In this document: piece after piece, positions 154 to 28,465 of the stretch
Position numbering within the stretch: the first letter of the stretch is position 1
How the letters are laid out: each line of letters opens with the position of its first letter
NCBI GenBank assembly: GCA_964555035.1
Contig: CAZKRK010000046.1
Location: forward strand, 1 to 29,411
Source of the DNA: an uncultured Victivallales bacterium
Lineage (GTDB): Bacteria > Verrucomicrobiota > Kiritimatiellia > UBA8416 > CAYOBW01
DNA: 29,411 nucleotides
Direction: 5' to 3'
Made by a program: the position numbers and the translations under genes
The notes under the pieces: generated by a model
Databases searched by the model: none
Seen by the model: the letters and a program-made list of their open reading frames with translations, nothing else
What the model was told of the DNA's origin: nothing

Positions 154-1581
154 ATGAACCGTCCCCACTCTCGCCGCGCCTTTATGAAGCTTTCCGGGAT
201 CGGGGCGGCCGCACTGGCGCTGCCGGCCGCGGGCCGCGCACAGTCCGGCAAACGCCCACCGAACTTCGTGATCGTATTCCTAGACGATTCCGGCTGGGGG
301 GACTTCCGCCCGTTCGGCAAGCCGCAATACCCGACGCCCAACGTGGAGGAGCTTGCGCGGGGCGGGTGCCGTTTCAACCACTTCTGCGTACCGCAGGCCG
401 TCTGCTCCGCGTCACGTTCAGCGCTGATGACCGGCTGCTATCCCGGGCGCACCAAGGTGTTCGGCGCACACCCGCCGCGGGCCCGCGGCCTGGATCCGAA
501 ATTCGCCACCCTGGCGGAAGTGCTGAAGCCGAAGGGCTACAAGACCGCGGTCTTCGGCAAGTGGCATCTCGGCGATCAGCCCGACACGCGCCCGCCGGCG
601 CGAGGGTTCGACGAGTCCTGCGGCCTGATGTACTCCAACGACATGTGGAAGTACCATCCCGGCACGCGCCACTTCGACAAGTGGCCGCTCCAGTTCTGGG
701 ACAACGGCAAGATCACGATCGAAGACGTCACTCCCGAGGACCAGAAGAGCCTGACGAAGTGGTCCGCAGAGCACGCGGTGAGTTTCATCGAGCGGCACAA
801 GGACGAGCCGTTTCTCCTCTACGTCCCGCACTCCATGCCGCACGTTCCGCTCTTCTGCAGTGACGAGTTCGACGGCAAGTCGGGCCGGGGGCTGTACGCA
901 GACGTGATGATGGAGATCGACTGGTCCATGGGCGAAATCATGAAGGCGCTGAAGAAGGCCGGCATCGAAGACAATACGGTTGTCATGTTCACGTCCGACA
1001 ACGGCCCGTGGGTGTCTTACGGCAACCACGCCGGCGTTACGCCCTACCGCGAAGCCAAGGCCACCGGATTCGACGGCGGCATCCGTAGCGCCTGCATTGT
1101 CAAGTACCCGCCGCAAATCAAGGCGGGAACCACGTCCGAGCGTATGTTCAGTTCGCTCGACGTGCTGCCCACGTGCGCGGCCCTCGCCGGCGCGGAGCTG
1201 CCGAAAAACGAAGTCGACGGCAAGAACGTCTGGGATCTGATTACGGGCAAACCGGGCGCGTCGAATCCGCACGACTACTATCCCTTCTCAACCGGCGGTA
1301 CGTTTGAAGGCGTCATCGGCGGCGATGGGAAGTGGAAGCTGCACGTGCCCCATCGGTACCGGACGCTGGTGAAACCCGGCAACGACGGCAAGCCGGGCCA
1401 GTATAAGCAGGCGCGTATCGAACTCTCGCTGTTCGACATGGAAAACGACCCATACGAAACGACGAACGTGATCGACAAGCATCCGGAGGTCGCCAAAAAG
1501 CTGCAGGCCTACGCCGATGCACACAAGGCGAGATTCTACCGAAAATCGAAGCCCAAACCGAAAAGGAAAACCACCGGGTAG
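154..1581 (+). CDS. Tat-exported formylglycine-dependent sulfatase (arylsulfatase family), complete
   Basis: Twin-arginine signal SRRAFMKLSGIGAAALALPAAGRA right after ATG at 154, with AGGAG 7 nt upstream. Active-site motif CSASRSALMTGCYPGR at nt 403-417 (C-x-A-x-R variant). Downstream family motifs GKWHLG, PHSMPHVP, FTSDNGPW, and C-terminal LFDMENDPYETTNV...PEVAKKLQAYADAH. ORF-track start 133 is probably an upstream in-frame ATG. Confidence 0.9.
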   Translation: MNRPHSRRAFMKLSGIGAAALALPAAGRAQSGKRPPNFVIVFLDDSGWGDFRPFGKPQYPTPNVEELARGGCRFNHFCVPQAVCSASRSALMTGCYPGRTKVFGAHPPRARGLDPKFATLAEVLKPKGYKTAVFGKWHLGDQPDTRPPARGFDESCGLMYSNDMWKYHPGTRHFDKWPLQFWDNGKITIEDVTPEDQKSLTKWSAEHAVSFIERHKDEPFLLYVPHSMPHVPLFCSDEFDGKSGRGLYADVMMEIDWSMGEIMKALKKAGIEDNTVVMFTSDNGPWVSYGNHAGVTPYREAKATGFDGGIRSACIVKYPPQIKAGTTSERMFSSLDVLPTCAALAGAELPKNEVDGKNVWDLITGKPGASNPHDYYPFSTGGTFEGVIGGDGKWKLHVPHRYRTLVKPGNDGKPGQYKQARIELSLFDMENDPYETTNVIDKHPEVAKKLQAYADAHKARFYRKSKPKPKRKTTG

Positions 1582-1890
1582 CCCCCGTTCTGGCACTTCC
1601 CCAACACCTACGATCAACCGCCCTACAGCTCGGTGCGCAAAGGCGACTGGAAACTGATCTACCAGCACGTCACCCGGAAACTGGAGCTGTACAACCTTCG
1701 CGAGGATATCGGCGAGAAGAACAACCGTGCGCAGAGCAACCCGGCGAAGTTGAAGGAGTTGGCGGGCGCGCTGAGCGAACACCTGCGGGCATGCGGCGCC
1801 CCCATGTCGATCGACAAGGCTACAGGGAAGCGCATCGAGTACCCGTCGGAACTCTCAGTGGGCCGGATTTGTAATCCGGCCGAGAGATAG
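1582..1890 (+). pseudogene. C-terminal remnant (~100 aa) of a second sulfatase, in frame directly after the stop of the first sulfatase; lacks N-terminal catalytic domain
   Basis: In-frame translation after TAG at 1579-1581 gives PPFWHFPNTYDQPPYSSVRKGDWKLIYQHVTRKLELYNLREDIGEKNNRAQSNPAKLKELAGALSEHL, a typical sulfatase C-terminus. The complete upstream gene already has its own C-terminal motif, so this is a truncated second copy. Confidence 0.6.
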
Positions 1891-1985
1891 TCGAGGATGT
1901 TATCGAGAATGAACGGACCAAGGTCAGGCCATTCTCCCGGCATGCTCCACATTCTCTCGGCCGGATTACAAATCCGGCCCACTGA
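1855..1985. repeat. REPIN-like inverted-repeat element: perfect 33-bp arms (TCAGTGGGCCGGATTTGTAATCCGGCCGAGAGA) separated by 65 bp; each arm holds a hairpin GGCCGGATT-TGT-AATCCGGCC
   Basis: Arm 1855-1887 is the exact reverse complement of 1953-1985. Sits between convergent sulfatase remnants. Core hairpin is similar to the element at 13140-13251. Confidence 0.8.
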
Positions 1986-2032
1986 AGACGCACATGATTT
2001 GGGCGGTATCCGTCATTCCGCCGCGCTCCCGG

Positions 2033-2669
2033 TCACCGCTTCTTCTTGCGCGGCTTGCGTTGGCGCAACGGCGTGTTGTCCTCCGGCACCTTGAGCTCTT
2101 TGCGCAACCGGTGCAGCTCCGCCAGCAGCTCCTTCCGGACGGAGGCGTATTCGGGTTTGCCGTAGACGCTGTTGAGCTCGTTCGGGTCTTTCTCAAGGTC
2201 GAACAGCTCCCACTCCTTCAGTTGGTAGTAGTGGATCAGTTTGTGGTTGCCGGTGGTGACGCCGTAGTGCCGCGCCACGCTGTGGGCGCCCGGGAACTCG
2301 TAGTAGTGGTAATAGAACGACTTTCGCCAGTCCTCCGGCGTCCGTCCCTTGAAGAGCGGCACGAGGCTGCGTCCCTGCATGTCGGCCGGGACAGGCACAC
2401 CCGCCAGGTCGAGAAACGTCTCGGCTTGGCCCGCAGATGGAGTTGGTGACGTGACAGCGCGTGAACTTCATGCCGCCCTTGGCGATGCGGTCCATGTTGG
2501 GCGTCGTCATGCGCGTGGGGTCGTACGCGCTCAACGCCTGCTCGCAGTGGTCATCGGTGAAGATGAAGATGATGTTGGGTCGCTTGTCCTTGCCGACGGC
2601 GCGCGCCACGCCGCTAGCCAGTCCTGCCGTTCCCACCATCGCTGTCTTCATGAAATCACGTCGGTTCAT
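2033..2669 (-). pseudogene. Sulfatase with internal deletion and frameshift: N-terminus (Tat signal plus CGPSR active site) joined directly to the C-terminal ~135 aa
   Basis: Minus-strand frame A (2669 to ~2421): [20 protein letters not shown]...FTDDHCEQ...[12 protein letters not shown], then nonsense. Frame B, open from ~2440 downward: [26 protein letters not shown]...[19 protein letters not shown]...[23 protein letters not shown], the canonical sulfatase C-terminus. The ~250 aa that normally separate these motifs are missing, and the junction is out of frame. Confidence 0.7.
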
Positions 2670-2685
2670 GATATGTTCCCTTTCC

Positions 2686-2774
2686 GTAGAACCGTTCTCC
2701 AGGACGGTTCCAATCCGCGCGCGTTTGCAGTACCCCCTCAGGCTCTGCCGAACCGTCCTGGAGAACGGTTCTAC
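2686..2774. repeat. Inverted-repeat element: perfect 25-bp arms (GTAGAACCGTTCTCCAGGACGGTTC) separated by 38 bp, intergenic between the TolC-like stop and the sulfatase-remnant start
   Basis: 2686-2710 is the exact reverse complement of 2750-2774. The outer end starts with GTAG, as in REP elements. Confidence 0.75.
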
Positions 2775-2782
2775 AAGACAGC

Positions 2783-4111
2783 CTACCGCCCAACCGCGAA
2801 TTCGTACTCGCTCAACAGTTCCATGTACGTGGTCTGCAGGTTGATGAGCCTGATGCGGCTGTTTTCGAGGTCGTTCTGACTGCGGACGTATTCGAGGATG
2901 TCGATTTCGCCGTTGTCCCAGCGGTCGGCGTAGAGCTCGGCGCGCAGCTCGGAGACCTCGATTTTATCCTGCTGGATCCGGACAAGCTGCAGGGTCTCCT
3001 TGATGCGGCGGGCAAGTTCGCGGATGGACTTGATCCTGGATTGCTTAAGATCGTCGATAGCGATTTCGTCCGAGGCAATTTCGGTTGCGACTTTTCTGCT
3101 CTTGAGCCGCTCGGTCATGCTGCCCGGCTCCCACGAGAACGCCAACCCGACGGCGGTTTCGGTGTCGCCGTCCAGACCGAAGCCGTCCTCGCTGTCGCGG
3201 CCGGTCGTGGCCGAGAGCGTCACCTTCGGCCAACGGCGGGCGCGCTGCACGGGCAGTTCGTTTTCGCGTTGCTTCTTCTCGAGCTGCGCGTTGAGGATGT
3301 CCTCGTGGTTGGTTACTGCGAAAGCGGTATCCGCCCCGACATCGAGCTTGTGTTCGGCGAATTCGAAAGAGGCGTCGATTTCGATGTCCCGCGCGACATC
3401 CATGCCGATCAGTAGCTTCAGCTCGTCGAGCGCCGACTGTATCTGGCGCCTGGCCCGCAGGACCCCGGCTTCGGACTCGGGCACCTCGATCTTGGCCGTG
3501 GCGATGTCGAGGGGCCGTTCTCTCTCCAGGGCGTGCTCGAGGTTCTTACGTGAGCGCGCCAGCTTGAGCTCGTTGATGCGCAGGGTCTGGTGGTTGCGAA
3601 TCAGGCCGTAGTAGTCCTGCTTTACGCGGTAGACCAGCTCGCGTTCGTACTTGCGGACCTTGTTGCGTTCGATAAGCTCGCCGAGAATGCTGTTGTCGAT
3701 CTCCAGCATGGATTCCCGCCACGAGCCGCCGCCGACGATGACCTTCGAGAGCTTGAGGGAGAGGTTGGCGCTTTCCGTCTCGTCATCGCCGCTGTCTTCG
3801 CGCGTGGCCTTGCCCGTAGCCGAGGCCGTGATGCCGGCGGGAAGCTCCTGCTTGACCGTGGCGGATGCGCCGAGCTCGTCTTCATCGATGCCGCGGTCGG
3901 CGGATCCGCTGAGCGTCGGCCGGAACTTGCCGCGACGGATGTGCGTTGTCAGTTCCTGTCCGTCGAGAGCCAGCCGCCGCTTGGCCAACTCGCGCGAATG
4001 GCTCACCGCGTAGTCGGTGCAATCCTCGAGGGTCATGGCGTCCCGCGCCGAAACCGGCGCAAGCGAAACCAGCAGGGTCAGGATTGCGGCTGTGACCGGT
4101 CGCTTACTCAT
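2783..4111 (-). CDS. TolC-like outer membrane efflux protein (OEP family) with signal peptide
   Basis: 442 aa. N-terminal signal [22 protein letters not shown]. Coiled-coil-rich tandem-repeat composition typical of outer-membrane factor proteins. Start overlaps the upstream macB-like stop by 8 bp (translational coupling). Confidence 0.75.
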
Positions 4112-6113
4112 ATCTCAACGCCTCAACGGGGTTCTCGGCGGCGGCCTGGGCCGCGGGGTAGATGCCAAACAGCAGGCCGGTCGCCGTCGATGCCAGAACC
4201 GAAAGCAGAACCATTGTCGGTGAGATCACGATCGGCAAGTCGAAAAACGTGCAGGTCGCGGCCACCACGGCGAAGGCGAGCAGGATTCCCGCAAACCCGC
4301 CGGTCACGGCGATGACCACGGACTCGGACAAAAACTGGTAGAGTATGTCCTGTCGCGTGCCGCCCACGGCGCGGCGGATGCCGATCTCCCGTGTGCGTTC
4401 CGTTACGGACGCCAACATGATGTTCATGATGCCGATGCCGCCGACCACGAGTGCGATGGAGGAAATGCATATCGTCAGAATGTCGAGCAACCGCTGCGAC
4501 TGCTGCTTCTGCTTCAAGAGATCGAGGGGCACCACAAGCTGAAAATCCTCCTGCCCGGCGTGAGTGGCATGCAGCAGCCGCCGGATGGCGACGCCGGCTT
4601 CGCGCAGGATGTCCTCGTCCTCCAGTTGGAGGTGGATTTCATCGATCTCGCTGCGCATATCGAGATGTCGCGTACGCGTGAGAATCGTGCGCAGGGGTAT
4701 GAGCAGATCGTAGTTCGCGTCGCTCACCCCCGTGGCTTCCAGTCCGGCGGTGTCGACCTGCCGGTTGGCCAGAACGCCGACAACGAGATACGGGTTGCCC
4801 CCGAGCAGAATCTGCCTGCCGATGATGCCGTCACGTCCCAGGCGTTCGGCAATGGCATGGCCCAACACGGCCACGCGCGCGCTGCGGGCCTGGTCGTCAG
4901 CGTCCGCGAAGCGGCCCTCTGCCAGCGACAGGTTGTTGACCGTCAGGTAGTCGCCGAAGACCCCGACGATTCGCGGTGACACCGGGCGCGCACTTTCGGT
5001 CACGAGGTTCAGCTTCACCTCCCGTGACGCCGCGGCCTTCTCTACCCCGGGGACACGCTCGACGATCTGCTCCATGTCCAGGAGGGAGAGCCCCTTCGAT
5101 CCGGCGATGCGGGTCTGCGACAGCTTCTCGCCTTCGAGGCGGCTGTCGGTTACGCGCACCAGGTTGGCCCCCAGAGCGCGGATCTGGTCGGCCTGCTTTT
5201 GCTTGCTGCCGAGCGAGAAGGATGACATGGCGATGACGCCCGCCACGGCGATGACGATGCCCAGCATCGTCAACGCCGTGCGCATCTTGTGGGCGAGAAG
5301 ACCTTCGCGAATACCGATGCGCAGCAGGTCCGCGAAGTGGATACCCCGGCGGCGCACCCGTTCTCCGGTCGCACGCGTCGCCTTGTGGCTGACCTTGCGC
5401 TTGCCGGGCACGTCTTCCACGACCAGCCCGTCGCGCATCACGATCTTCCGTGTTCCCGCATCGGCGAACTTGGCGTCGTGCGTCACCATGACGATCGTGT
5501 AGCCCTTGGCGTGGAGGTCGTAGAGCACGTCCAGGATCTCCTTGCCTGTGCGCGAGTCGAGGTTTCCGGTCGGTTCGTCGGCGAGGATGATGTCCGGCTC
5601 GTTCACGAGTGCACGGGCAATGGCCACGCGTTGGGCCTGTCCGCCGGAGAGCTCGCCCGGGCGGTGTTCGAGACGGTGTCCCAGTCCGAGCCGGTCAGCG
5701 TACTCGCAAGCGCGTTCGAGACGCGTGCGGCGGTTGATCCCGCTGTACACTTCAGCCAGGGCGACGTTCTCTTCTACCGTCAGGCCGCCGAGCAGGTTGA
5801 ATTGCTGAAAAACGAATCCCACGCGCTGGTTGCGTACCTGCGACAAACGTCCGTCCTCCAGCGCGGACACATCCTCACCGTCGAGAAGATACTCGCCCGA
5901 GCTGGGCACATCGAGACAACCCAGGATATGCATCAGCGTTGACTTGCCCGACCCGGAGCTGCCCATGATGACGACGAACTCGCCGCGGCGTATGTCGAGG
6001 TCGACCCCGTCGAGAGCCCGCACGACGTGCTCGCCCATGGTGTAGTGCCGCCGAATGCCGCGCAGCCGCATCAGCGGCGCGGCGGCGGAATCGGATGATG
6101 GAGGCGTGGGCAT
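4104..6113 (-). CDS. macB: MacB-type ABC transporter (fused N-terminal ATPase plus C-terminal FtsX-like permease)
   Basis: Walker [10 protein letters not shown], signature [15 protein letters not shown], Walker [13 protein letters not shown]-loop VTHD. Followed by a large periplasmic region and 4 C-terminal TM helices. 669 aa, typical MacB size. Confidence 0.88.
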
Positions 6114-6191
6114 GGGGCCTGCAGGAGGTGGGTGGGGCCAAAACCGATCTGACAGATCGGTCGGATCCGTCGGATCGGCCGGGCCAAATGG

Positions 6192-6228
6192 GCGCAGGTG
6201 CGGGACGCGACGCGTCCCGCATCTGCGC
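6192..6228 (-). terminator. Near-perfect 18-bp-stem palindrome GCGCAGGTGCGGGACGCG-A-CGCGTCCCGCATCTGCGC, 12 bp downstream of the oxidoreductase stop; probable terminator and/or operator ahead of macB
   Basis: Palindrome centred at 6210 with one G-T wobble position. Adjacent region 6140-6175 carries further overlapping palindromes (CCGATCTG-A-CAGATCGG; CGGATCCG). Confidence 0.55.
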
Positions 6229-6239
6229 AGATGGTCGGT

Positions 6240-7589
6240 CTAGCCGTTGAGCGGCCAGCCCTCGCGGTACTTGCGCTTGAAGCAAAGATCCTTCTCCGCT
6301 TCGGGCAAGTTCGTGATACGACCGGTCTTGGGATTGTACTCGATCTTCTTGCCCATGCGGTAGGCCACGAGGCCGAGCATGATGGACTCGAGCATCTTGC
6401 CGGAGTAGTCGAAGTCGCAGGATGTCTTGAGGTCGCCCTTGCAGGCTTTGACCCACTCGCCCTGGAAGTGACCCAGGTTCGGGATCATCTTCTCCTTCTC
6501 ACGCCGGTTGTAGTAGCTCATGTCCGCACTGTCGCCGAACGGAATAAGGAGACGGGACCTGAAATCGCAGATCAGGAAGCCCTTGTCGCCCTTGTACATC
6601 GCGCCGTGGCCGATCTTGTTGACGTCGACCCAGGATCTCGGCGACTTCGGCATCGCGCCACCCTGGTACCAGCTCATACCGATCTCCGGCCGCCAGTCGT
6701 TGGCGGGAAGCTTGCAGTGGACCTCGAGCTTGACCGGTGAAACTTCCGGATTGAACTTCTCGCCCTTGGCGGTGGCCTCGGTTGCGACGTCGGCATCCAG
6801 CGGGTTGAAGCAAAGATCCAGCGTGTGGCTGCCCATATCGCCGATCTGCCCTGTGCCGAAGTCCCAGTACATGTTCCACTTCAGGCAGTTTGCGCCGGGG
6901 CCGCCCGAGAAGTACTCCGGGTGGTAGGGATGGTACGGCGCCGGTCCGAGCCACAGGTCGTAATGCAGGTGGGGAGGCGGCTCGCCCTTGGCCGGATGAT
7001 AGCCGGGCTTCGGAATCTTGCGGTTGCCCCAGGCGTAGGCATGCTTCAGCTCGCCGATGGCTCCGTCCACGATCAGCTCACGGACGCGGTTGAAGTTGGG
7101 GCCGGCGTGGCGCTGCGTGCCGATCTGCGTCGCGAGCTTGTCCTTTTTCTCGTTATAGAGCTCGCGGACCGCGCGACACTCTTCAACGCTGATACCGATC
7201 GGCTTCTCCATGTAGACGTGGAGGTCGCGATTCAGCGCCCATGCGGAAATGTGCGCATGCGTGTGGTCGGGCGTGCAGCAGAGGATCGCATCGAGATTGA
7301 GACTCTTGTCGTCAAGCAGCTTGCGCCAGTCGATATACGTCTTTGCCTTGGGGAACTTCTTGTGCGCCGAGGCGAGGTGGTTCTCGTTAATGTCGCACAG
7401 CGCCACGACATTCTCGCTCTTGATCGAGCCTTGGTGTGCCAGGCCGCGACCCCAGACGCCGATCAGCCCGACGTTGAGCTTGTTGCTGGGAGCGTTCTGC
7501 CCGAACACCGAGATGCTCGGCAGAATGAGAGCCCCGGCTCCCGTGACAGTTGACCGCTGCAGGAATTGACGTCGGTTCATGGTGTGCAC
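6240..7589 (-). CDS. Tat-exported Gfo/Idh/MocA family NAD(P)-dependent oxidoreductase
   Basis: Tat signal MNRRQFLQRSTVTGAGALILP. Rossmann motif VGLIGVWGRGLAH. Conserved EKP (YMEKPIG) and typical Gfo/Idh/MocA C-terminal domain. AAGGAG RBS 7 nt upstream. Confidence 0.9.
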   Translation of the reverse strand: MHTMNRRQFLQRSTVTGAGALILPSISVFGQNAPSNKLNVGLIGVWGRGLAHQGSIKSENVVALCDINENHLASAHKKFPKAKTYIDWRKLLDDKSLNLDAILCCTPDHTHAHISAWALNRDLHVYMEKPIGISVEECRAVRELYNEKKDKLATQIGTQRHAGPNFNRVRELIVDGAIGELKHAYAWGNRKIPKPGYHPAKGEPPPHLHYDLWLGPAPYHPYHPEYFSGGPGANCLKWNMYWDFGTGQIGDMGSHTLDLCFNPLDADVATEATAKGEKFNPEVSPVKLEVHCKLPANDWRPEIGMSWYQGGAMPKSPRSWVDVNKIGHGAMYKGDKGFLICDFRSRLLIPFGDSADMSYYNRREKEKMIPNLGHFQGEWVKACKGDLKTSCDFDYSGKMLESIMLGLVAYRMGKKIEYNPKTGRITNLPEAEKDLCFKRKYREGWPLNG

Positions 7590-7856
7590 TCCTTGTAGGT
7601 TACTGGGGTTCCTGGTCCCTCCCGGACAAGAAATCGGATACTAACGAAAAGGAGCCGAACAAATCAAGCACCGGTTCGCTGAGTCCGCGGCCGCGGGCGC
7701 ATCTCGATCTGCTGCACTTGCCGAGTGGCCCCCACCGGGATAAGCCCGGCGGGGGGGCCTCGGCAAATGCAACAAATCGGCGCCATTGTCAATCCGCCCC
7801 GTTTGTGCCATTTTTCGAGCATTGTGAAGACCTCCACCGAGAACATTGCGGCCGGG

Positions 7857-10800
7857 ATGAGGCAGAACCGGCTCTTTCTCGACCTCGAAACAACCCGGAG
7901 CGGACGCATTCGCAAAGTCGGCGCCGTATTCGGCGATCGTGTTGTGTCGTCGGCACACGACGGGGGCGTGCAACGGGCGCTGTCCATTCTGGACCGAATA
8001 GCCGGCCAGGCCGAGTGCCTCGCGGGACACAACATCGTCGATCACGACCTGCCTGCTCTTCGCCATTGCCGTGCGGACTTGAAACTCCTGCAGGTTCCCG
8101 TGATCGATACGCTCTACCTCTCGCCGATCTGCTTTCCCGAAAATCCCTATCATTGCCTGGTCAAGGACTACAAGTTGGTCTCGGAAACCGTCAGCGATCC
8201 TGTCGAAGACGCCCGCCTGGCCGCAACGCTGTTCGAGGACGAAATCGCGTCTCTGATCGGTATCCGAGAAAGCAGTCCCGAGCTTTTCAAAGCGTTGCAC
8301 CTGCTGACCACAAAGACATCGCCGTCGGATCCCGGATCTCATGCGACCGGAATGAGGCATCTGTTCCGGAGCCTCGGGGCCGACGCGGTCACCGATGACG
8401 CGCTCGAGTGTGTCCGCGGGATGGCGGCGCAGTACGGCTGTCGAACGGCAGCCGTACGCTTGGACCACACGAACCTCACGTCCGCGCAGAAGTGCTGGGC
8501 GCTGGCCTTCGTGCTGACCTGGTTGCGCGTGTCCGGCTCGGATTCCGTCATTCCGCCCTGGGTGCGGCACCGCCACCCGTCCGTCAGCGTATTCCTTCAT
8601 GCGCTCCGGGATGTTCCTTGTGACGACGCGGATTGCCGGTATTGTGCCGAAACCCACAGTCCCGAGAAGCAGCTCAAGCGGTTCTTCGGGTTCGACTGCT
8701 TCCGACCCACGCCGCATGATGGGAACGGCGGCAGCCTGCAACGCCGCATCGTGTTGGCGGGGATGCAGGGAGAATCGCTCCTGGCGATCCTGCCGACAGG
8801 CGGCGGCAAGTCACTCTGCTACCAACTGCCCGCACTTGTCCGCAGCGTCCGGCGAGGGCAGTTGACGGTCGTGATCTCCCCCCTGCAGGCGTTGATGAAA
8901 GACCAGGTGGACGGGCTGCAACGCCGCACCGGCCTTGAAAACGCCGCCGCGCTCTACGGCCTTCTGACGCCGCCCGAGCGTGGTGACGTACTCCGACGTC
9001 TCAGGACAGGTGACATAGCGGTTCTGTACGTATCTCCGGAGCAACTCCGCAACGCTTCCTTCACCAGGGCAATCTCGCAGCGGGAGGTCGGTTGCTGGGT
9101 CGTCGACGAGGCGCATTGCCTGTCGAAATGGGGACACGATTTCCGCCCCGACTACCTCTACATCGGCCGCTTCATGCGCGAGCTCGCCAAGCGTCAGGGA
9201 TGCCCCTTGCCTCCCGTTGCCTGTTTCACCGCCACGGCCAAGCGCGATGTCGCCGAAGAGATCATGGCCTACTTTCAACGTGAGACGGCCATGCCCGTTG
9301 CCCTCTACCAGGGCGGCGTCGAACGCGAGAACCTGTGTTTCGAAGTGCAGACAGTCAGCGCGCCGGCCAAGCTGGGGCGAATCGACGAGTTGCTGCACGA
9401 CCGATTGGATGCGAACGGGAACGAAGGAAGCGCGATCGTCTTTCGTACTACGCGCCGGCTCGCCGAAGAAACGGCCGAGTACTTGTGCAACCAGGGGTGG
9501 CAGGCGGCGTTCTTTCACGCCGGCATGACGCCGCCGGAAAAGAAGCGCACGCAGGACGCGTTTCTCGACGGCGAGCTGCGCGTGATCTGCGCGACGAACG
9601 CGTTCGGCATGGGGATCGACAAGGACGACGTCAGGCTTGTCGTGCACGGCGATTCGCCGGCTTCGATCGAAAACTACCTGCAGGAAGCCGGCCGGGCGGG
9701 CCGTGATCGCGGCCGTGCCGACTGCGTGTTGCTCTATGACGAGGAGGACTGCGAGCAGCAGTTCCGTCTCGGCGCCTTTTCAGAACTGAGCCGGCGCGAT
9801 ATCGCCCAGATTCTGCGCGGGCTCCGTAAAGCCACCCGCACGCACGGCTCGGACAGCGTCGTGATCACGACCGGCGAGCTCATGCGCGACGAGGATGTCG
9901 ACACCACATTCGGGCCCGAAGACCTGTCGGCCGACACCAAAGTACGCGCCGCGATGTCCTGGCTCGAACGTGCCGGCTTCGTCGAACGCAACCAGAATCG
10001 CACCAACGTCTTTCAGGCGCGCCTCCTGGTACGCTCCACCGGGGAGGCGGAGGAGAAGCTCGCGCAGCTCGGCCTGTCCGACGCGGAGTCCCGGCTCTGG
10101 CTCGCCATCGTGCGTGAAATGATCAATGCCGGGGAAACCGACAGCCTGACCGTAGACGGGTTGGCTCTGCTGCCTGAATTCCAAGGCTATCTGAAGACCG
10201 GGGCGGAGTTCATACCGCACCATGTCGTGCGCGAGGGACGCAGCCAGGAGTATCTGAGTTCAAAGGTCCTCAAGGTCCTTAACTCCATGACGAACGTCGG
10301 GATCATGAAGAAGGATACGCTGCTCACCGCGTTCATTGCCTACAAGGTGGCCAACCACTCGCGCGTGCGTTTCGATCGGGTCTGCGCGAGCGATCGCGAA
10401 ATGCTGAAGGTGTTGATGGAAGAAGAGCCCGATCCGGAAGGCTGGCTGCCGCTCAATCTCCGTCTGCTGAACCAGACATTGCTGGATCGCGATGTTTCCG
10501 CGTCACCCCCTTTCCTGCGCAGGTTGTTGCGCAGCTTGAGCGAGGACGGCAAAGGGTTCTCGGGACAAAGGGGCAGCATCGAGTTGCGCCACGTCGGCCG
10601 CGATGCCTATCGGGTTCGGCTGCGGCGCGAGTGGGCACAGATCGCGGAGCTTGCCGAACGCAGGCGTCGCGTGGCCGGTGTGCTGCTCGACGCGATTGTC
10701 TCCAAAGTGCCGTCCGCCACTCCGCCTCGAGCGGACCTCCTCGTGGAGTTCTCTTTCGAAGAACTGACCGCCGCGCTCAACCGGGATCTCGCTCTGCGCT

Positions 10801-13073
10801 CGGACGTCCGCGACATGCAGGCCGCCATCGAACGGGGACTCATGTTCCTGCACGAGCAGAATGTCATTGTCTTGCAGCAAGGACTGGCGGTGTTCCGCTC
10901 GGCCATGACCGTTCGTGTGCTGCCTGAATCGAAAGGGCTGCGCTACACGCAGGACCAGTACCAGGCGCTCGAGCACCACTACCGCGAACGTGTGTTCCAG
11001 GTGCACGTCATGAACGAATACGCCCGGTACGGGATCGAGAAGATCCAGGAGGCGTTGGCTCTGGTTGTGGCATACTTCACAATGGAGAGGGAAGCCTTCA
11101 TTGCCCGCTTCTTCGGATCACGCCGCGAGCTCTTGGAACGTGCAACGACGGCACGCTCATACCGTCGGATTGTCGATGCCCTGGGCAACCGCGAACAGAT
11201 CCGCATCGTGACGGCGCCGCTCAACAAGAACATGCTCATCCTGGCGGGACCCGGATCGGGAAAGACGCGCACCGTCGTCCACCGGTGCGCCTACCTGTTG
11301 CGCGTGAAACGCGTGCGCCCCTCTTCCGTTCTCGTCTGTTGCTTCAACCACAAGGCAGCGCTCGAATTGCGCAGACGCCTCGCGGAGCTTGTCGGCCGCG
11401 ACGCCTGCGGCGTCACGGTTCAGACATACCACGGATTGGCCCTGCGACTGCTGGGGTTCTCGTGCAGCGCGATGAAACCGGACGCTCGCGATTCGCTCGA
11501 CTTCGACAGGTTGATCGTGGACGCCGTGGACCTTCTTGAAGGCGGAAAGGCCGCGGCTGGCCTCGAATCCGACGAAACGCGTGACCGGCTCTTGGCGGGA
11601 TACGAACACATCCTCGTCGACGAGTATCAGGACATCGACGAGGCGCAGTACCATATGATCGGCGCAATCGCCGGGCGGACCCTTGAAGATGGCGATCGCA
11701 AGCTCACCATCCTTGCCGTCGGAGACGATGACCAGTCCATCTACGGTTTCCGCGGCGCGAACGTCACGTTCATTCGCCGTTTCTGCGAAGACTTCGAGGC
11801 CGCCACACACCACCTCGTCGAGAACTACCGGTCTACCCGCTACATCATCGAAGCGGCGAACAGCGTCATTGCCCGCAACCGTGATCGAATGAAGTGCGAC
11901 TTGCCTATTCGCGTTGACGAAGGCCGCCAGCTTTCCCACCCCGGGGGGGCGATTGCCTCACTGCATCCGGAGACAAACGGACGCGTTGCCGTCGTCTCCG
12001 TGCGGGATGACGCCGCACAGGCTGTCGCCGCCGGGACCGAGATTGAGCGGCTTCGGACCCTTGGCGCGAAAGACTGGTCTCGAACGGCAATCCTCTCGCG
12101 AACGCGCCGCGATTTGTCGCTCGTACGCGTCGCGTTGGAGGCGAAATCGATTCCGGTCCAATGGCCTCTGCAGCGCAACAAGCTGCCCTCGATCTACCGA
12201 ATGCGCGAGGTCCATCGTGCTCTCGGCACACTCCGCGAGATGCGAAGCAGCAACAGAACGGCATCGGAGCTCTTCGAGCGCGTCGTCATGCCACCCGGTT
12301 CTTGCGGCAACGCGTGGGCGGGCATGATCGAATCCCTCTTGAGCGCATGGCAGGACGAAACCGGCAACGCCAGCCTTCCCGTTGGTGCTTGCGTCGATTT
12401 CCTCTACGAGTCGCTCGCACAGCGCCGGAGAGACGAACAGTTTGGCGTCGGCGTCGTCCTGAACACGGTCCACGCGGCCAAGGGAACGGAGTACGACCAC
12501 GTTATTCTTTGCGGCGATTGGTCCAATGGGAGCAATGCCGCGGACATCGAAGAAGAACGCCGCGTCTTCTACGTCGGCATGACACGTGCGCGGCATTCGC
12601 TGTGCATTCTCGATCGCGCCGATACGCGCAACCCGTTCCGTGGAGAGCTGGTTGGCCCTTGTTTCGCCCCGCGACATGAGATGGGCCCCGCGAACGGCAA
12701 TCTCGCCTATCGCGACTACACGCTGCTTGGTCTCGATGACATGTTCCTGGACTTTGCGGGCCGGCAGCCGGCCCGCCACCGCGTTCACGAGGCTCTGTCC
12801 GAGCTGAAGCCCGGAGCATCTCTGCAGGCACAAGCGCAGGATGGCCGCGTCTGGCTGGTCCATGGGGCAGGGACAACGATCGGCGCTTTGTCCGCACAGG
12901 CGACAGAACTCTGGCGCGATCGCCTCGACGACATCGACTCGATCCGCGTGGTCGGAATGTACACGCGCCTGCGCGAGGACATCGGCGACAGGAACTTCCT
13001 TGCCCGCATCCGCTGCGACTCGTGGGAAGTCCCGGTCTGCGAGGTCCGCTCCATGCCGGCCGGGCAGGACTGA
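7857..13073 (+). CDS. Giant multidomain helicase-nuclease: DnaQ-like 3'-5' exonuclease + RecQ-family helicase core + unknown ~450-aa middle region + UvrD/PcrA-family helicase core + unknown ~170-aa C-terminal domain
   Basis: Exo I FLDLETT and Exo II [12 protein letters not shown] near the N-terminus. RecQ motifs: [102 protein letters not shown]. UvrD motifs: [98 protein letters not shown]. Single uninterrupted frame. The ORF-track start at 7725 probably over-extends; ATG at 7857 sits immediately before the exonuclease motif. Confidence 0.9.
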   Translation: [1738 protein letters not shown]

Positions 13074-13139
13074 GTTCGTCGATCGCTCCGCCTATGCCGC
13101 CCCTCCGGGGCTTGTTTCCATGCTCGACGCATGTGCGGC

Positions 13140-13251
13140 AAACGTAGGTCCGATTTGCAATCGGACCCAACTCCGGTCGGGTCTGGTCAGCCGTGGCGTT
13201 ATCTGAGGCAACCAGCGGGGTTGGGTCCGATTGCAAATCGGACCTACGTTT
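13140..13251. repeat. REPIN-like inverted-repeat element: perfect 32-bp arms (AAACGTAGGTCCGATTTGCAATCGGACCCAAC) separated by 48 bp; each arm holds a hairpin GGTCCGATT-TGC-AATCGGACC preceded by GTAG
   Basis: 13140-13171 is the exact reverse complement of 13220-13251. Lies between the convergent stops of the two helicase genes. Hairpin core matches the 1855-1985 element at 16 of 21 positions. Confidence 0.85.
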
Positions 13252-13350
13252 ACCGCTCACGCACGTTCCGGCCCTCGGGGAGTCACGAAGCATCCGCTTC
13301 TTCCGCACGAAGGTGTCACAGTTGTTTCCGAGAGGTAAGGTAGTCTGGGC

Positions 13351-16269: not shown

Positions 16270-16297
16270 AGGCTCACACCTTGTAAAGTGTGAGCCT
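16270..16297. promoter_or_regulatory. Perfect palindrome AGGCTCACAC-cttgtaaa-GTGTGAGCCT between the regulator stop and the SNF2 promoter region; candidate operator (copy 1 of 2)
   Basis: 10-bp perfect stem with 8-nt A/T-rich loop. The same stem sequence recurs at 16898-16929. Confidence 0.55.
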
Positions 16298-16871
16298 ACC
16301 CCTCCATGCAAGCGATTCGTACCAACTCATGCGCAAGAGGCGATAACTTCCGCGCCAGGGCGTATGTCCCGCGTTGGTTCCGGACGACAATGTCACGGCG
16401 CACCAGTTTGCTCACATGACGCTTCATCGCCGGCAGAGAAATGCCGCATCGAACAACCAGTGCCACAATCGACAACCCCGGCGAGCGATTCAGTTCCCGC
16501 ACGATCCGGATGCGTCTAGGATGTGTGAAAGCTGTAAGGTTCCGAAACGCCCCCTCGATGGCGCCTAGGCGCCTGGAAAGCTGTCGTTTCATCGCGGTGA
16601 CAAGGGCCTCGGAAAACGAGATCGTGCTGTTTGGAGACACAGTGTACACGACCCAACGACTCGTCCGCCGCGCATCCAGGATGCCTCTGGCGTTGAGAGC
16701 CCGAAGACATTGGCTCGCACTGGATTCCGATATGCCTACCTGCGCGGCGACATCGGAGACGCACTGCCGTTGATGTCGAAGCAGAAACCGCAACACAGCG
16801 AGCCGTCTCCGGTTCGCCAATGCCCGGCATGTGCGCCAAAGCGTAGGACTGAGTGAACGCGCGTTCTCCAT
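16296..16871 (-). CDS. Tandem winged-helix (two ArsR/SmtB-like HTH domains) transcriptional regulator
   Basis: First wHTH: LANRRRLAVLRFLLRHQRQCVSDVAAQVGISESSASQCLRALNARGIL...WVVYTV. Second wHTH: HPRRIRIVRELNRSPGLSIVALVVRCGISLPAMKRHVSKLVRRDIVV. ATG at 16871 preferred; the ORF-track start 16907 is a GTG inside the upstream palindrome. Confidence 0.7.
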   Translation of the reverse strand: MENARSLSPTLWRTCRALANRRRLAVLRFLLRHQRQCVSDVAAQVGISESSASQCLRALNARGILDARRTSRWVVYTVSPNSTISFSEALVTAMKRQLSRRLGAIEGAFRNLTAFTHPRRIRIVRELNRSPGLSIVALVVRCGISLPAMKRHVSKLVRRDIVVRNQRGTYALARKLSPLAHELVRIACMEG

Positions 16872-16897
16872 ACCATCTCCAAGTAGACACCTCAACG

Positions 16898-16929
16898 CCA
16901 GGCTCACACGTTATAAGGTGTGAGCCTGG
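16898..16929. promoter_or_regulatory. Perfect palindrome CCAGGCTCACAC-gttataag-GTGTGAGCCTGG ~30 bp upstream of the regulator ATG; candidate autoregulatory operator (copy 2 of 2)
   Basis: 12-bp perfect stem, identical core to 16270-16297; the two loops differ but both are A/T-rich 8-mers. Confidence 0.55.
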
Positions 16930-17062
16930 CGTCAATCAGAAACTCGTGGCATCGGCATCCAAGCCAGGTTCCTTGACTGCGGCGACTACTACGACGTTGG
17001 TCTTGACAAGTACTGCCCACTGAGCGCTGGGATGGCAGAAGTCCTTACCTCGTGGAACTATC

Positions 17063-17170
17063 GGTGACACCATTGATTGATGATTCCCGATTGATGATTT
17101 GTGATTTTCGAAGTACTTCACAAATCATCAATCATAAATCGCTAGTCATCAATCAGACGAAGGTGTCACC
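17063..17170. promoter_or_regulatory. AT-rich extended palindrome built from GATT/GATGATT iteron-like units (TGATTGATGATT, CCGATTGATGATTT, GTGATTTT | AAATCATCAATCA ...), bounded by GGTGACACC / GGTGTCACC and centred on TTCGAA
   Basis: Low-GC island in a ~68% GC background. Outer 9-bp inverted repeat plus several internal inverted iterons, seen directly. Confidence 0.6.
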
Positions 17171-17361: not shown

Positions 17362-17462
17362 CACAACCCAAGTGTGGCATAGGTAGAAAAACGGGAAGGT
17401 AAGAAGATGGGAGAATTGACGGCATCATCTTTCTACCATCCCATCTTTCTGCCTATCATCTC
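17362..17462. repeat. ~100-bp dyad-symmetric element, copy A (CAACCCAAGTGTGGCATAGGTAGAAAAACGGG...CCCATCTTTCTGCC)
   Basis: ~75% identical over ~100 bp to 28362-28465; both copies have internal inverted repeats GGYAGAAAAAYGGG / CCCATYTTTCTGCC. Confidence 0.7.
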
Positions 17463-17575
17463 CTACACAGGGCTTGGCCAGATTTCTAGTTCTTCTTGCG
17501 CCCCTCGCCCGGCTAAGCCACTACGCCTCGGCCGGGACTTCTCCCGGCAGAGGGGGGCCGCATTCGTGGGCAGTC

Positions 17576-17625
17576 CATTGATGATTGTCGATCGCCGATT
17601 GCCGATTTCTGAAGTTCGAAAACCA
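17576..17625. repeat. Second GATT-iteron block (CCATTGATGATTGTCGATCGCCGATTGCCGATTTCTGAAGTTCGAA), related to the left half of 17063-17170
   Basis: Shares the word order CCATTGAT..GATT..CCGATTG..GATTT..TTCGAA with 17068-17112. Confidence 0.5.
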
Positions 17626-17704
17626 GCAATCAGACCGGACTGCGCGTCGTCGTCACTGCAGACTGAACAGTCTTTTGCCTATTCGCCCGCTGTAGGCGGC
17701 CTAG

Positions 17705-17730
17705 CGGCGGAGGACCGCCGTCTCCAGTGG
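17705..17730. repeat. REP-like hairpin motif CGGCGGAGGACCGCCGTCTCCAGTGG, copy 1 of 3
   Basis: Hairpin CGGCGG-AGGA-CCGCCG followed by TCTCCAGTGG; near-identical copies at 20826-20850 (inverted) and 20939-20964. Confidence 0.7.
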
Positions 17731-17892
17731 CGTCTCCGCAGGGCGCGTAGTCGCTTTCTGTGTGTAATAGGCAGGACAAGCCCGGCGGGGCTACTCTGAA
17801 AGTGCAGCAAATTGCAGATGCGCCCAGCGGCAGCGTACGCTCATAACACTCTTGCCCCCGCCGCGCCTCTCGTGCATGCTTACCGGGAGCGC

Positions 17893-20825: not shown

Positions 20826-20964
20826 TACTGGAGACGGCGGTCCTCCGCCGTTACGGAGCAAGGTGTTGAGCACAAACGGAAACAGAAGTGAACGAAGTTC
20901 CCGCATGTTCCACCAAGTGCGCACTCACTTGCGCGCAACGGCGGAGAACCGCCGTCTCCAGTGG
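20826..20964. repeat. REPIN-like doublet: two inverted copies of CGGCGGAG(G/A)ACCGCCGTCTCCAGT (20826-20850 reverse; 20939-20964 forward) ~90 bp apart, in the intergenic region between the lipoprotein and O-antigen-ligase-like genes
   Basis: Both copies seen directly; 23 of 23 identity to copy 1 for the inverted copy, and 1 mismatch for copy 3. Confidence 0.7.
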
Positions 20965-26897: not shown

Positions 26898-27043
26898 GCA
26901 CGGATCCGCCTTCGCCGAGCTACGGCGGGACACGACGGGTTTCCGCGCTACCGTCCGTCGCCCACGACCTCCCTCCCCCGTCGACAAGCCGAAACAGGTT
27001 CGGGACAAGACCCGCAAGCCCCGCGCTTCGTAGAGCGTCCGCA

Positions 27044-27125
27044 GGTGCGTCTTGGAAAGACGCACCGGAGGGCGCAGGCCGGGCAAACCCCACCTCTCGT
27101 CTCCGGCCCGCGCGACGCGCGGGCC
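27044..27125. promoter_or_regulatory. Structured leader between the SPFH gene and rtcA: perfect hairpins GGTGCGTCTT-gga-AAGACGCACC (27044-27066) and GGCCCGCGCG-a-CGCGCGGGCC (27105-27125), plus further GC stems
   Basis: 10-bp perfect stems seen directly; located in the ~300 bp between the SPFH stop (27205) and the rtcA start (26897). Confidence 0.5.
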
Positions 27126-27204
27126 TCCGGCGAGTCTACGAAGACACGCCCCCGCCACCGGGGGCCGGGGTACGCCCCTGCGTACCTCCGGCTCCCCGGG
27201 CCGA

Positions 27205-28361: not shown

Positions 28362-28465
28362 AACAACCCAAGTGTGGCACAGGCAGAAAAATGGGTTGGC
28401 AGAAAGATGGGGATATTGAGGGTGTCGTTCCTCTGCCAGCCCATTTTTCTGCCTTTCATTTCTAT
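28362..28465. repeat. ~100-bp dyad-symmetric element, copy B, 50-150 bp upstream of the SPFH-rtcA-rtcB gene cluster start
   Basis: CAACAACCCAAGTGTGGCACAGGCAGAAAAATGGG...CCCATTTTTCTGCC; ~75% identical to 17362-17462 with the same internal 14-bp inverted repeat. Confidence 0.7.

What the first reader, a model, noticed from the sequence alone, without database searches (positions are those of the whole stretch)
1855..13251. A family of REPIN-like elements sharing the hairpin core GGYCSGATT-TGY-AATCSGRCC
Two separate intergenic elements (1855-1985 and 13140-13251) are each a perfect inverted doublet (33- and 32-bp arms; 65- and 48-bp spacers). Their arms each contain a 9-bp-stem, 3-nt-loop hairpin that is 16 of 21 identical between the two loci (GGCCGGATTTGTAATCCGGCC versus GGTCCGATTTGCAATCGGACC). 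Both lie between convergently oriented genes. The second carries the GTAG tetranucleotide at the 5' side of the hairpin, as in REP sequences cleaved by RAYT transposases. Perfect arm identity suggests recent duplication or gene conversion, as in REPINs. No RAYT gene is present in this window.
Basis: partly seen in the sequence, partly recalled or inferred. Interest (0 to 1): 0.55.

Follow-up and report, generated by a model that had tools for sequence, protein, structure and literature searches.

The report
REP-hairpin doublets (REPIN-like) in a planctomycete
The two intergenic palindromes are real copies of two related families of small repeated elements (inverted pairs of one conserved hairpin, of the REP/REPIN kind that tyrosine transposases are proposed to mobilise), a well-known class of bacterial repeat and so of modest novelty.

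Summary
Both loci are inverted doublets with perfect 33- and 32-nt arms. Each arm holds a 9-bp-stem, 3-nt-loop hairpin matching GGYCSGATTTGYAATCSGRCC (4 copies against 0.02 expected).

Neither locus is a one-off. Over its whole length, spacer included, each is 72-85% identical to elements on other metagenome contigs. I found at least 16 relatives of element 1, four loci for element 2, and relatives of both in a Planctomycetota MAG. Across the 17 aligned copies of element 1 the hairpins are nearly invariant, while the spacers diverge but keep their pairing.

The same 21-mer is abundant in rumen Bacteroidales. There, at two loci, inverted copies flank a RAYT gene (NCBIfam REP_Tyr_transpos; apparently subclass 2.6 of Quentin 2018). 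Copies in PVC, Chloroflexota and Ignavibacteria carry the canonical GTAG (or GTGG) tag. Bacteroidales copies carry GTTC or GCTC.

The best reading is GTAG-type REP head-to-head dimers, that is, REPIN-like elements. This class is already described, including in Planctomycetes (Di Nocera 2013).

Not shown: a RAYT in this organism, and the genome-wide copy number. Only about 37 kb of this genome was reachable.

The elements lack T-tracts, so they are not canonical intrinsic terminators. Verdict: a new member of a known kind, of low to moderate interest.

The parts
1855..1985 (.). Element 1: an inverted doublet of REP hairpins with the tags on the outside (an 'HH dimer', REPIN-like), 131 nt. It belongs to a family with the consensus AGTAGGCCGGATTTGYAATCCGGCC-GAGAGA...GAGCATGTTGCCGAGAATGAAC...CATTCTC...CATGCTC...TCTC-GGCCGGATTRCAAATCCGGCCTACT.
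   Evidence: It is 72-83% identical over about 125-135 nt to at least 16 other metagenome loci.
1858..1881 (+). Left REP of element 1: GTGG tag (its last G is the first stem base) plus hairpin 1861-1881, GGCCGGATT-TGT-AATCCGGCC. It encodes the last residues (VGRICNPA) of ORF 1633-1890.
1888..1952 (.). Spacer of element 1. It is an imperfect palindrome with conserved helices (GAG/CTC, GCAT/ATGC, GAGAAT/ATTCTC) separated by variable internal loops.
1959..1982 (-). Right REP of element 1 (hairpin 1959-1979 followed by CCAC on the + strand), inverted relative to the left REP.
13129..13262 (.). Element 2: an inverted doublet of REP hairpins, about 112-134 nt. Its family consensus is GCGGCAAAC-GTAGGTCCGATTTGCAATCGGACC-CAACYCCGG...GATCTGAGG...CGGGGTTG-GGTCCGATTGCAAATCGGACCTAC-GTTTGCCGC.
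   Evidence: Homologues are L078, L086, L112, L127 and L025 5308-5418, at 80-85% identity (L086, a partial copy at a contig end, 91% over 67 nt).
13144..13167 (+). Left REP of element 2: GTAG tag plus hairpin 13147-13167, GGTCCGATT-TGC-AATCGGACC.
13172..13219 (.). Spacer of element 2. Its ends are complementary (CAACTCCG / CGGGGTTG) and its sequence is homologous to the spacers of the other family members.
13224..13247 (-). Right REP of element 2 (hairpin 13224-13244 followed by TAC; it reads GTAG on the - strand).
2686..2774 (.). A separate GTAG-tagged inverted doublet with perfect 25-nt arms (GTAG-GAACCGT-TCTCCAGG-ACGGTTC). It is the same kind of element with a different hairpin. No relatives were found among the fetched loci.
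27026..27143 (.). A further palindromic repeat bracketed by CTTCGTAGAG...GAGTCTACGAAG, with two different inner hairpins. It has a homologue in the Planctomycetota MAG locus L025 (80% identity) that shows compensatory changes. It belongs to another family.
20827..20962 (.). A further inverted doublet (hairpin ACGGCGG-TCCT-CCGCCGT in each arm). Its homologue in L129 (75% identity) lies next to a member of the element 1 family. It belongs to another family.

Best explanation
Elements 1 and 2 are members of two related families of non-autonomous REP doublets, meaning GTAG-type 'head-to-head' REP dimers, also called REPIN-like elements.

Each consists of two inverted copies of a 24-nt REP: a GTAG or GTGG tag followed by a 9-bp stem and 3-nt loop, GGYCSGATT-TGY-AATCSGRCC. 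The copies are separated by a family-specific, partly self-complementary spacer.

Inferred mechanism, by analogy with E. coli TnpA-REP and IS200/IS605. A single-copy HUH/Y1 transposase (RAYT), encoded elsewhere in the genome, recognises the folded hairpin and its 5' tag on single-stranded DNA. It cleaves and rejoins there, so the doublet is the unit that is copied or maintained. The elements accumulate at the 3' ends of genes, where insertion is tolerated. Once transcribed, they can additionally act as RNA hairpins that stabilise or attenuate transcripts.

Shown here:
- the anatomy of both elements;
- family membership at many loci;
- invariance of the hairpin against diverging spacers;
- the GTAG or GTGG tag;
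- the same hairpin core flanking RAYT genes in Bacteroidales.

Inferred, not shown: that a RAYT exists in this organism, that it acts on these elements, and that it works on single-stranded DNA.
For: 1. Anatomy and non-randomness.

2. Multi-copy families with homologous spacers. Element 1 aligns over about 125-135 nt, at 72-83% identity, to at least 16 other loci, mainly in metagenomes JGI10211J34971 and JGI11705J14877. Element 2 aligns at 80-85% to L078, L112/L127 and L025 (the partial copy L086 at 91% over 67 nt). The Planctomycetota MAG locus L025 carries relatives of four of the window's palindromic elements within 8 kb.

3. Hairpin conservation. In the 17-sequence alignment both hairpins are nearly invariant, whereas mean column identity over the whole alignment is 76%. 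The long-hairpin structure is kept in 95.8% of cells, with 7 pairs changed on both sides, against 0 of 500 shuffles reaching that. One of those pairs is the window's own GTGG/CCAC against GTAG/CTAC elsewhere.

4. Link to a transposase. In L054 and L043 a 180-aa Y1 transposase sits between inverted copies of the same core. It scores 105-113 bits against NCBIfam NF047646 REP_Tyr_transpos (cut-off 80) and matches Pfam Y1_Tnp. The core is present on many contigs of single Bacteroidales MAGs.

5. Tags. All 9 PVC, Chloroflexota and Ignavibacteria copies outside conserved coding sequence carry GTAG or GTGG.

6. Fit to the literature. GTAG REP families, HH dimers with conserved 20-100-bp spacers, a preference for convergent intergenic regions, overlap with ORF ends, the GTGG variant, and presence in Planctomycetes and Verrucomicrobia are all described in PMC3733652.

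7. Assembly behaviour. Three of the eight contig ends of independent assemblies that fall inside the window lie in the arms of elements 1 and 2 (window 1863, 13172, 13225). This is expected of multi-copy or palindromic repeats.

8. No target-site duplication flanks the copies, as expected for Y1-transposase substrates.
Against: - No RAYT was found in the roughly 37 kb available from this organism, nor on any contig carrying a GTAG-tagged copy.
- The only RAYT genes seen flanked by this exact core are in Bacteroidales. Their REPs carry a GTTC or GCTC tag and a second short hairpin, not GTAG.
- RAYTs of the same clade in Phycisphaerae (Planctomycetota), Kapabacteria and Ignavibacteriales are flanked by different hairpins.
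- Subclass 2.6 RAYTs are reported not to conserve the residues that recognise GTAG (PMC6006769). The enzyme serving GTAG-tagged copies is therefore unknown, and the shared core could be convergent.
- Copy number in this particular genome is unknown. About 54 kb from other Planctomycetota contigs lacks the hairpin.
- No presence/absence polymorphism was seen. All contigs of this population are about 100% identical, and the apparent differences near 27,050 are scaffold gaps.
Confidence: 0.75

Rival explanations
1. The elements are purely host regulatory hairpins, such as bidirectional terminators or mRNA 3'-end stabilisers between convergent genes. On this view they are kept by selection on structure and have no mobility or transposase.
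For: - Both sit between convergent genes, and element 1 abuts a stop codon.
- They form very stable hairpins.
- Structure is preserved, with some compensatory changes, across the family.
- REPs are thought to have such secondary roles (PMC3733652).
Against: - No T-tract follows either hairpin, and neither is picked up by the terminator scan.
- The helicase gene has its own terminator-like hairpin at 13099-13111, upstream of element 2.
- Selection on structure alone would not keep the hairpin sequence invariant while the spacers drift.
- It would not explain homologous copies, spacer included, at many unrelated loci and flanks.
- It would not explain the same core flanking RAYT genes.
Confidence: 0.1
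2. The elements are MITEs mobilised by a transposase that is not a RAYT. Candidates are a DDE transposase acting on the terminal inverted repeats, or IS200/IS605-derived palindrome-associated elements.
For: - They are short, non-coding, have terminal inverted repeats, and occur in multiple copies.
- No RAYT was found nearby.
Against: - No target-site duplications flank the copies.
- The termini are GTAG-tagged hairpins, the REP signature, and not plain inverted repeats.
- The element is symmetric, unlike the left and right ends of IS200/IS605.
- The only transposase seen next to this core is a RAYT.
- No matching element was found in plasmids or viral contigs.
Confidence: 0.07
3. The elements are relics. 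They are REP doublets whose RAYT has been lost from this lineage, so they are now immobile and decaying, or persist only through a host function.
For: - No RAYT was seen in any GTAG-tagged locus.
- REPtrons are known to be lost in some lineages (PMC3733652).
- Only one copy of each family occurs in about 37 kb.
Against: - The perfect arms and the invariant hairpins across diverged copies argue for continuing maintenance.
- The sample is far too small for the absence of a single-copy gene to mean anything.
Confidence: 0.08

Closest known systems
GTAG-tagged REP superfamily, HH (head-to-head) dimers (Di Nocera, De Gregorio & Rocco 2013, PMC3733652)
   Same: - A 5' GTAG tag (GTGG in element 1, a variant recorded for Opitutus terrae GTAG-20).
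- A 6-13-bp stem with a 2-3-nt loop.
- Inverted pairs with the tags outside and a conserved 20-100-bp spacer that can fold.
- Location between convergent ORFs and overlap with ORF ends.
- Several families coexisting in one genome.
- Already reported in Planctomycetes (R. baltica, P. brasiliensis, P. limnophilus), Verrucomicrobia and Chloroflexi.
   Different: This particular hairpin (tip ATT-TGY-AAT) was not found in the text or supplements I could search. The figure listing the 24 consensus sequences is not held, so identity with a listed family cannot be excluded. In element 2 the conserved palindrome extends about 10 nt outside the GTAG.
REPINs of Pseudomonas fluorescens SBW25 and E. coli BIMEs, with their RAYT / TnpA-REP (Bertels & Rainey 2011, PMC3116915; E. 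coli biochemistry cited from my own knowledge)
   Same: Two inverted REPs form one long hairpin, and the doublet with its spacer is the repeated unit. The 5' half of the REP (GTAGGCCGGAT...) even resembles the reverse complement of the E. coli REP. That last point rests on my own knowledge and was not tested here.
   Different: The host phylum differs. The spacers are much longer and more structured (48-65 nt). The cognate RAYT and the population size in the genome were not demonstrated here.
Bacteroidetes REPtrons of TnpA-REP subclass 2.6 / RAYT group 5 (Quentin et al. 2018, PMC6006769)
   Same: The 21-nt hairpin core is identical (for example GGCCGGATTTGCAATCCGGCC). In L043 and L054 it flanks, in inverted orientation, a 180-aa RAYT carrying the subclass's motifs NHLH, WQ and YIHxNP.
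   Different: Bacteroidales copies carry a GTTC or GCTC tag and a second short hairpin with the same tip about 13 nt downstream. The window's copies carry GTAG or GTGG, have a single hairpin per arm, and have a long palindromic spacer.

Membership tests
REP (repetitive extragenic palindrome), GTAG superfamily | A short (20-40 nt) imperfect palindrome forming a stem-loop. | tested here: met
   Each of the four copies has a 9-bp stem and 3-nt loop. The single arms fold at -10.5 and -9.1 kcal/mol.
REP (repetitive extragenic palindrome), GTAG superfamily | A conserved 5' GTAG (or GTRG) tetranucleotide at the foot of the hairpin. | tested here: met
   Element 2 has GTAG on both arms. Element 1 has GTGG/CCAC on both arms, while 15 of its 16 aligned relatives have GTAG on both arms. 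GTGG is a recorded variant.
REP (repetitive extragenic palindrome), GTAG superfamily | High copy number within one genome, mostly extragenic. | tested here: inconclusive
   Only about 37 kb of this organism could be read, holding 4 hairpins in 2 loci. A related metagenome, JGI10211J34971, holds 24 contigs with the tagged core, and L025 holds 3 hairpins in 8 kb. Both loci are extragenic, except that one arm overlaps an ORF end.
REPIN (REP doublet forming a hairpin) | Two REPs in inverted orientation at a conserved short distance that can fold as one hairpin. | tested here: met
   Spacing is conserved across family members. 95.8% of cells are paired in the long-hairpin model.
REPIN (REP doublet forming a hairpin) | The doublet, spacer included, is the repeated (replicating) unit. 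| tested here: met
   Full-length homology at 72-85%, including the spacer, at loci with unrelated flanks. Actual replication was not observed.
REPIN (REP doublet forming a hairpin) | A cognate, usually single-copy RAYT gene in the same genome, flanked by the same REPs (a REPtron). | not testable with these tools
   No RAYT was found in the window, in its extensions, or on any GTAG-tagged locus. In Bacteroidales the same core does flank RAYT genes.
Intrinsic (Rho-independent) terminator | A GC-rich hairpin followed directly by a T/U tract. | tested here: not met
   No T-tract follows any of the four hairpins or either long hairpin. The scan reports other sites only.
Classical MITE (DDE-transposase derived) | Terminal inverted repeats flanked by a direct target-site duplication. 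| tested here: not met
   The flanks of the 17 aligned copies show no direct duplication. Instead the palindrome continues outward (A-GTAGG...CCTAC-T).

The most novel reading that the evidence does not exclude
The REP hairpin GGYCSGATT-TGY-AATCSGRCC is a single recognition module shared across distant phyla: Bacteroidota, Planctomycetota, Lentisphaerota, Chloroflexota and Ignavibacteriota. It is combined there with different 5' tags. Bacteroidales copies carry GTTC or GCTC and flank subclass-2.6 RAYTs. The other groups carry GTAG or GTGG.

This would mean one of two things. A REP-RAYT system has spread horizontally between phyla, against the prevailing picture of lineage-specific, vertically inherited REPIN-RAYT pairs. 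Or the tag and the hairpin evolve as separable modules, recognised by different parts or subclasses of RAYT.

Supporting hints:
- the identical 21-mer occurs in both contexts;
- a second tip variant (AGT-TGY-ACT) occurs both in PVC doublets (L019; L127) and in the REPs flanking RAYTs of this clade in Kapabacteria and in L155.
Probability: 0.3. Interest if true: 0.55.

Novelty: new member of a known kind. Interest (0 to 1): 0.33.

Why it matters
It adds two well-defined REP-doublet families to a little-studied, uncultured marine or environmental PVC lineage, probably Planctomycetota. This lineage appears rich in such palindromic repeats: at least five to seven elements in 29 kb. That matters practically, because the elements break assemblies and create spurious ORF tails.

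The more interesting by-product concerns the hairpin core itself. The same core flanks RAYT genes in rumen Bacteroidales and recurs with a different tag in several other phyla. This offers a natural experiment on how RAYTs read the tag as opposed to the hairpin, and on whether REP-RAYT systems cross phylum boundaries.

Tried and rejected
- **Rfam at gathering thresholds.** The only match in the window is the tRNA at 28886-28959. Nothing matches the elements.
- **Exact-protein look-up of RtcB using the longest ORF.** It failed because I used the wrong start. Other proteins located the organism's contigs.
- **Apparent strain polymorphism at about 27,025-27,120.** It turned out to be runs of N in scaffolds.
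- **RAYT hunting.**
  - The regex, phmmer and clade-HMM searches of all fetched loci found RAYTs at hairpin-bearing loci only at the two Bacteroidales loci.
  - The exhaustive profile search and two homologue searches reached Phycisphaerae, Kapabacteria and Ignavibacteriales RAYTs.
  - Their flanks carry other hairpins.
  - A screen of RAYT N-termini for REP-encoded peptides found only Bacteroidales cases.
- **Viral contigs and plasmids.** No copies were found.
- **Literature search for the hairpin sequence.** There were no relevant hits.
- **Synteny comparison through GFO/IDH/MocA homologues.** The loci were not syntenic and held no hairpins.
- **Test for concerted evolution of the two halves within an element, using the variable inner flanks.** The result was not significant: 0.63 within elements against 0.62 between them, p = 0.22.
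- **Cluster look-up for taxonomy.** It returned no names. Assignment to PVC/Planctomycetota rests on the named homologues and on the repeat families shared with the MAG locus L025.

Full report
**1. The observation**

- Element 1 has perfect 33-nt inverted arms (1855-1887 and 1953-1985) around a 65-nt spacer. The complementarity continues to 45 nt at 91%.
- Element 2 has perfect 32-nt arms (13140-13171 and 13220-13251) around a 48-nt spacer, continuing to 47 nt at 91%.
- Every arm contains a 9-bp stem with a 3-nt loop. The degenerate core GGYCSGATTTGYAATCSGRCC occurs exactly four times in the window, against 0.02 expected.
- As single-stranded DNA the whole elements fold at -54.1 and -56.3 kcal/mol, with z-scores of -13.4 and -10.9.

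Context.

- Element 1 lies between a sulfatase ORF on the + strand and a degraded sulfatase on the - strand. The sulfatase ORF has an in-frame TGA, and its last 11 codons run into the left arm.
- Element 2 lies between a 1782-aa DEAD/UvrD helicase gene on the + strand and a SNF2 helicase gene on the - strand.
- Both gene pairs are convergent.
- Element 2 carries GTAG at the foot of each hairpin. Element 1 carries GTGG.

**2. Source of the window**

Window proteins are found exactly on several JGI and ENA metagenome contigs that are about 100% identical to the window. This is an uncultured population sampled repeatedly.

- Named homologues of its GFO/IDH/MocA protein are mostly from Planctomycetota, with some from Phycisphaerae and Verrucomicrobia.
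- A GTDB Planctomycetota MAG locus (L025) shares four of the window's palindromic elements.
- Only about 37 kb of this genome could be read.
- Of the eight contig ends of these independent assemblies that fall inside the window, three lie in the arms of elements 1 and 2 (window 1863, 13172, 13225). Multi-copy or palindromic repeats behave this way in assemblies, though a palindrome alone could also cause it.
- Apparent sequence differences near 27,050 are scaffold gaps.

**3. The elements belong to repeated families**

A metagenome scan for the tagged core, GTRGGYCSGATTTGYAATCSGRCC, returned 60 loci.

- Twenty-four contigs of one metagenome (JGI10211J34971), and four contigs of JGI11705J14877, carry it. 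Many carry it as inverted pairs about 100 nt apart.
- Element 1 aligns over its full length, spacer included, at 72-83% identity to at least 16 of these loci, which have unrelated flanks.
- Element 2 aligns at 80-85% to L078, L112/L127 and L025 5308-5418, and at 91% over 67 nt to the partial copy L086. Its conserved palindrome extends about 10 nt beyond the GTAG (GCGGCAAAC-GTAGG...).

The two loci are therefore members of two distinct full-length families that share the REP hairpin.

In the 17-sequence alignment of family 1:

- Both hairpins and their tags are nearly invariant, while mean column identity over the whole alignment is only 76%.
- A long-hairpin model is kept in 95.8% of cells. 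Seven pairs are changed on both sides. None of 500 shuffles and none of the slid controls reach that.
- One of those double changes is the window's own GTGG/CCAC, against GTAG/CTAC elsewhere.
- The variable internal loops of the two halves are no more alike within an element than between elements.

What is being maintained is therefore the hairpin sequence plus a few helices. It is not wholesale palindromy, and it is not recent duplication.

**4. Link to a transposase**

Most hits are from rumen Bacteroidales, often on many contigs of the same MAG.

The Bacteroidales unit has this form: GTTC or GCTC, then GGTCGGATTTGCAATCCGACC, then about 13 nt, then a short second hairpin with the same ATTTGYAAT tip.

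At two of these loci, L054 and L043:

- A 180-aa ORF sits between inverted copies of this unit.
- The ORF carries the motifs NHLH, WQ and YIHxNP.
- It scores 105-113 bits against NCBIfam NF047646 'REP-associated tyrosine transposase' (cut-off 80) and matches Pfam Y1_Tnp.
- JGI names its relatives RayT.
- Its motifs and length match TnpA-REP subclass 2.6, equivalent to RAYT group 5. That subclass is described as mostly Bacteroidetes, with 'atypical secondary structures' flanking the gene (PMC6006769).

The hairpin core is therefore a genuine REP of a RAYT in at least one phylum.

**5. What could not be closed**

I looked for a RAYT next to the GTAG-tagged form and did not find one.

- No RAYT is present in the window, in its extensions, or in any GTAG-tagged locus.
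- The clade is very large: 268 representatives at E < 1e-30.
- Its members in other lineages are flanked by their own hairpins:
  - Phycisphaerae: GGTGCGAGAA-TCCC-TTCTCGCACC.
  - Kapabacteria and L155: tip AGT-TGY-ACT with a GTTC tag.
  - Ignavibacteriales: a further hairpin type.
- The architecture is shared: a 9-10-bp stem and a 3-nt loop that is often TGY. In the Bacteroidales, Kapabacteria and Phycisphaerae loci this is a long hairpin followed by a short one.
- The tags split cleanly by lineage. Fifty-one of 59 Bacteroidales copies are preceded by TTC or CTC. All 9 copies in PVC, Chloroflexota and Ignavibacteria that lie outside conserved coding sequence have GTAG or GTGG.
- Subclass 2.6 is reported not to conserve the residues that read GTAG.

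So the enzyme that serves the GTAG-tagged copies is unknown. The identity of the core across phyla may reflect shared ancestry or transfer, modular evolution, or, less likely for 12 independent positions, convergence.

The AGT-TGY-ACT tip also turns up in PVC doublets (L019; the right arm of L112/L127). This is a second coincidence pointing to a real relationship.

**6. Rival explanations**

- Canonical intrinsic terminators are excluded. There is no T-tract, and the helicase gene has its own terminator-like hairpin upstream of element 2.
- A secondary role as RNA hairpins is plausible but untested.
- DDE-type MITEs are unlikely. There is no target-site duplication, and the termini are tagged hairpins.
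- Orphan REPs whose RAYT has been lost cannot be excluded.

**7. Comparison with what is known**

Each of the following features of the two elements is described for the GTAG REP superfamily (PMC3733652) and for REPINs (PMC3116915):

- GTAG-tagged short stem-loops;
- head-to-head dimers with conserved, foldable spacers of 20-100 bp;
- location between convergent ORFs, and overlap with ORF ends;
- several coexisting families in one genome;
- the GTGG variant;
- presence in Planctomycetes, Verrucomicrobia and Chloroflexi.

This particular hairpin sequence does not appear in the searchable literature, but the figure listing the consensus sequences is not held.

The finding is therefore a new member of a known kind. 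The cross-phylum sharing of the core, with a lineage-specific tag, is its one moderately novel aspect.

**8. Verdict**

- The REPIN-like interpretation is supported, with confidence of about 0.75. The cognate RAYT and the genome-wide copy number remain untested.
- The inference of 'recent duplication' is not supported.
- Interest is low to moderate, at 0.33.

Noticed in passing
window 1579-1581 (within ORF 133-1890, + strand): The sulfatase reading frame is interrupted by one in-frame TGA. Sulfatase-like sequence continues after it (…TTG*PPFWHFP…). The stop is present in all independent metagenome contigs. It could be a pseudogene or a recoding site.
   Followed up: partly
window 2033-2669 (- strand): Degraded sulfatase. 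The TAT signal and N-terminus (2193-2669) and the SGSH_C C-terminal domain (2033-2398) lie in different frames, and the catalytic middle is missing. It sits between two REP-like doublets.
   Followed up: partly
window 2686-2774: A third GTAG-tagged inverted doublet with perfect 25-nt arms and a different hairpin (GAACCGT-TCTCCAGG-ACGGTTC). No relatives were found among the fetched loci.
   Followed up: partly
window 27026-27143; L025 5547-5662: A palindromic element bracketed by CTTCGTAGAG…GAGTCTACGAAG that holds two different inner hairpins. The MAG homologue (80% identity) keeps one inner hairpin through wholesale compensatory changes. Scaffolds of two assemblies have N-gaps exactly here.
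   Followed up: partly
window 20827-20962; L129 463-594: Another inverted doublet (hairpin ACGGCGG-TCCT-CCGCCGT). Its 75%-identical homologue lies next to a member of the element 1 family on L129.
   Followed up: partly
window 28381-28454 and 17397-17454: Two inverted pairs share the motif AGGCAGAAARATGGG. One lies upstream of the Band7-RtcA-RtcB genes (an RtcR gene lies just beyond the window in L074). The other lies at the start of ORF 17407-17799. They may be operator or activator sites.
   Followed up: no
window 17063-17170; L025 199-239: An AT-rich palindrome made of TGATTGATGATT-like units sits in the lowest-GC part of the window. It is partly conserved (88% over 41 nt) in the Planctomycetota MAG. 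The contigs of two independent assemblies end at window 17037, next to it.
   Followed up: no
window ~16270-16299 (- strand) and 16895-16932: Two similar hairpins (GGCTCACAC…GTGTGAGCC), one preceded by GTAG, flank the double-wHTH regulator gene 16296-16907.
   Followed up: no
L026, L058, L059, L060, L009 (Bacteroidales loci): Bacteroidales REPs are often preceded by short tandem partial copies of the tag plus the left stem (for example GCTCGGTCGCTCGGTCGCTC-GGTCGG…). This suggests slippage or abortive copying at the hairpin foot.
   Followed up: no
L082, L093, L097, L102, L119, L047 (soil and groundwater loci): Compact versions of the doublet, with the two tagged hairpins separated by only 0-10 nt (GTAGGCCGGATTTGCAATCCGGCC-GGCCGGATTGCAAATCCGGCCTAC). 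Heterodimers also occur, pairing it with a GGCCGGTTT-ACA-AAACCGGCC hairpin.
   Followed up: no
L138, L140, L142 (Phycisphaerae); L144, L155 (Kapabacteria-like): RAYTs of the same clade are flanked by lineage-specific two-hairpin REPs with a common architecture: a long hairpin, then a short hairpin sharing the same tip.
   Followed up: partly
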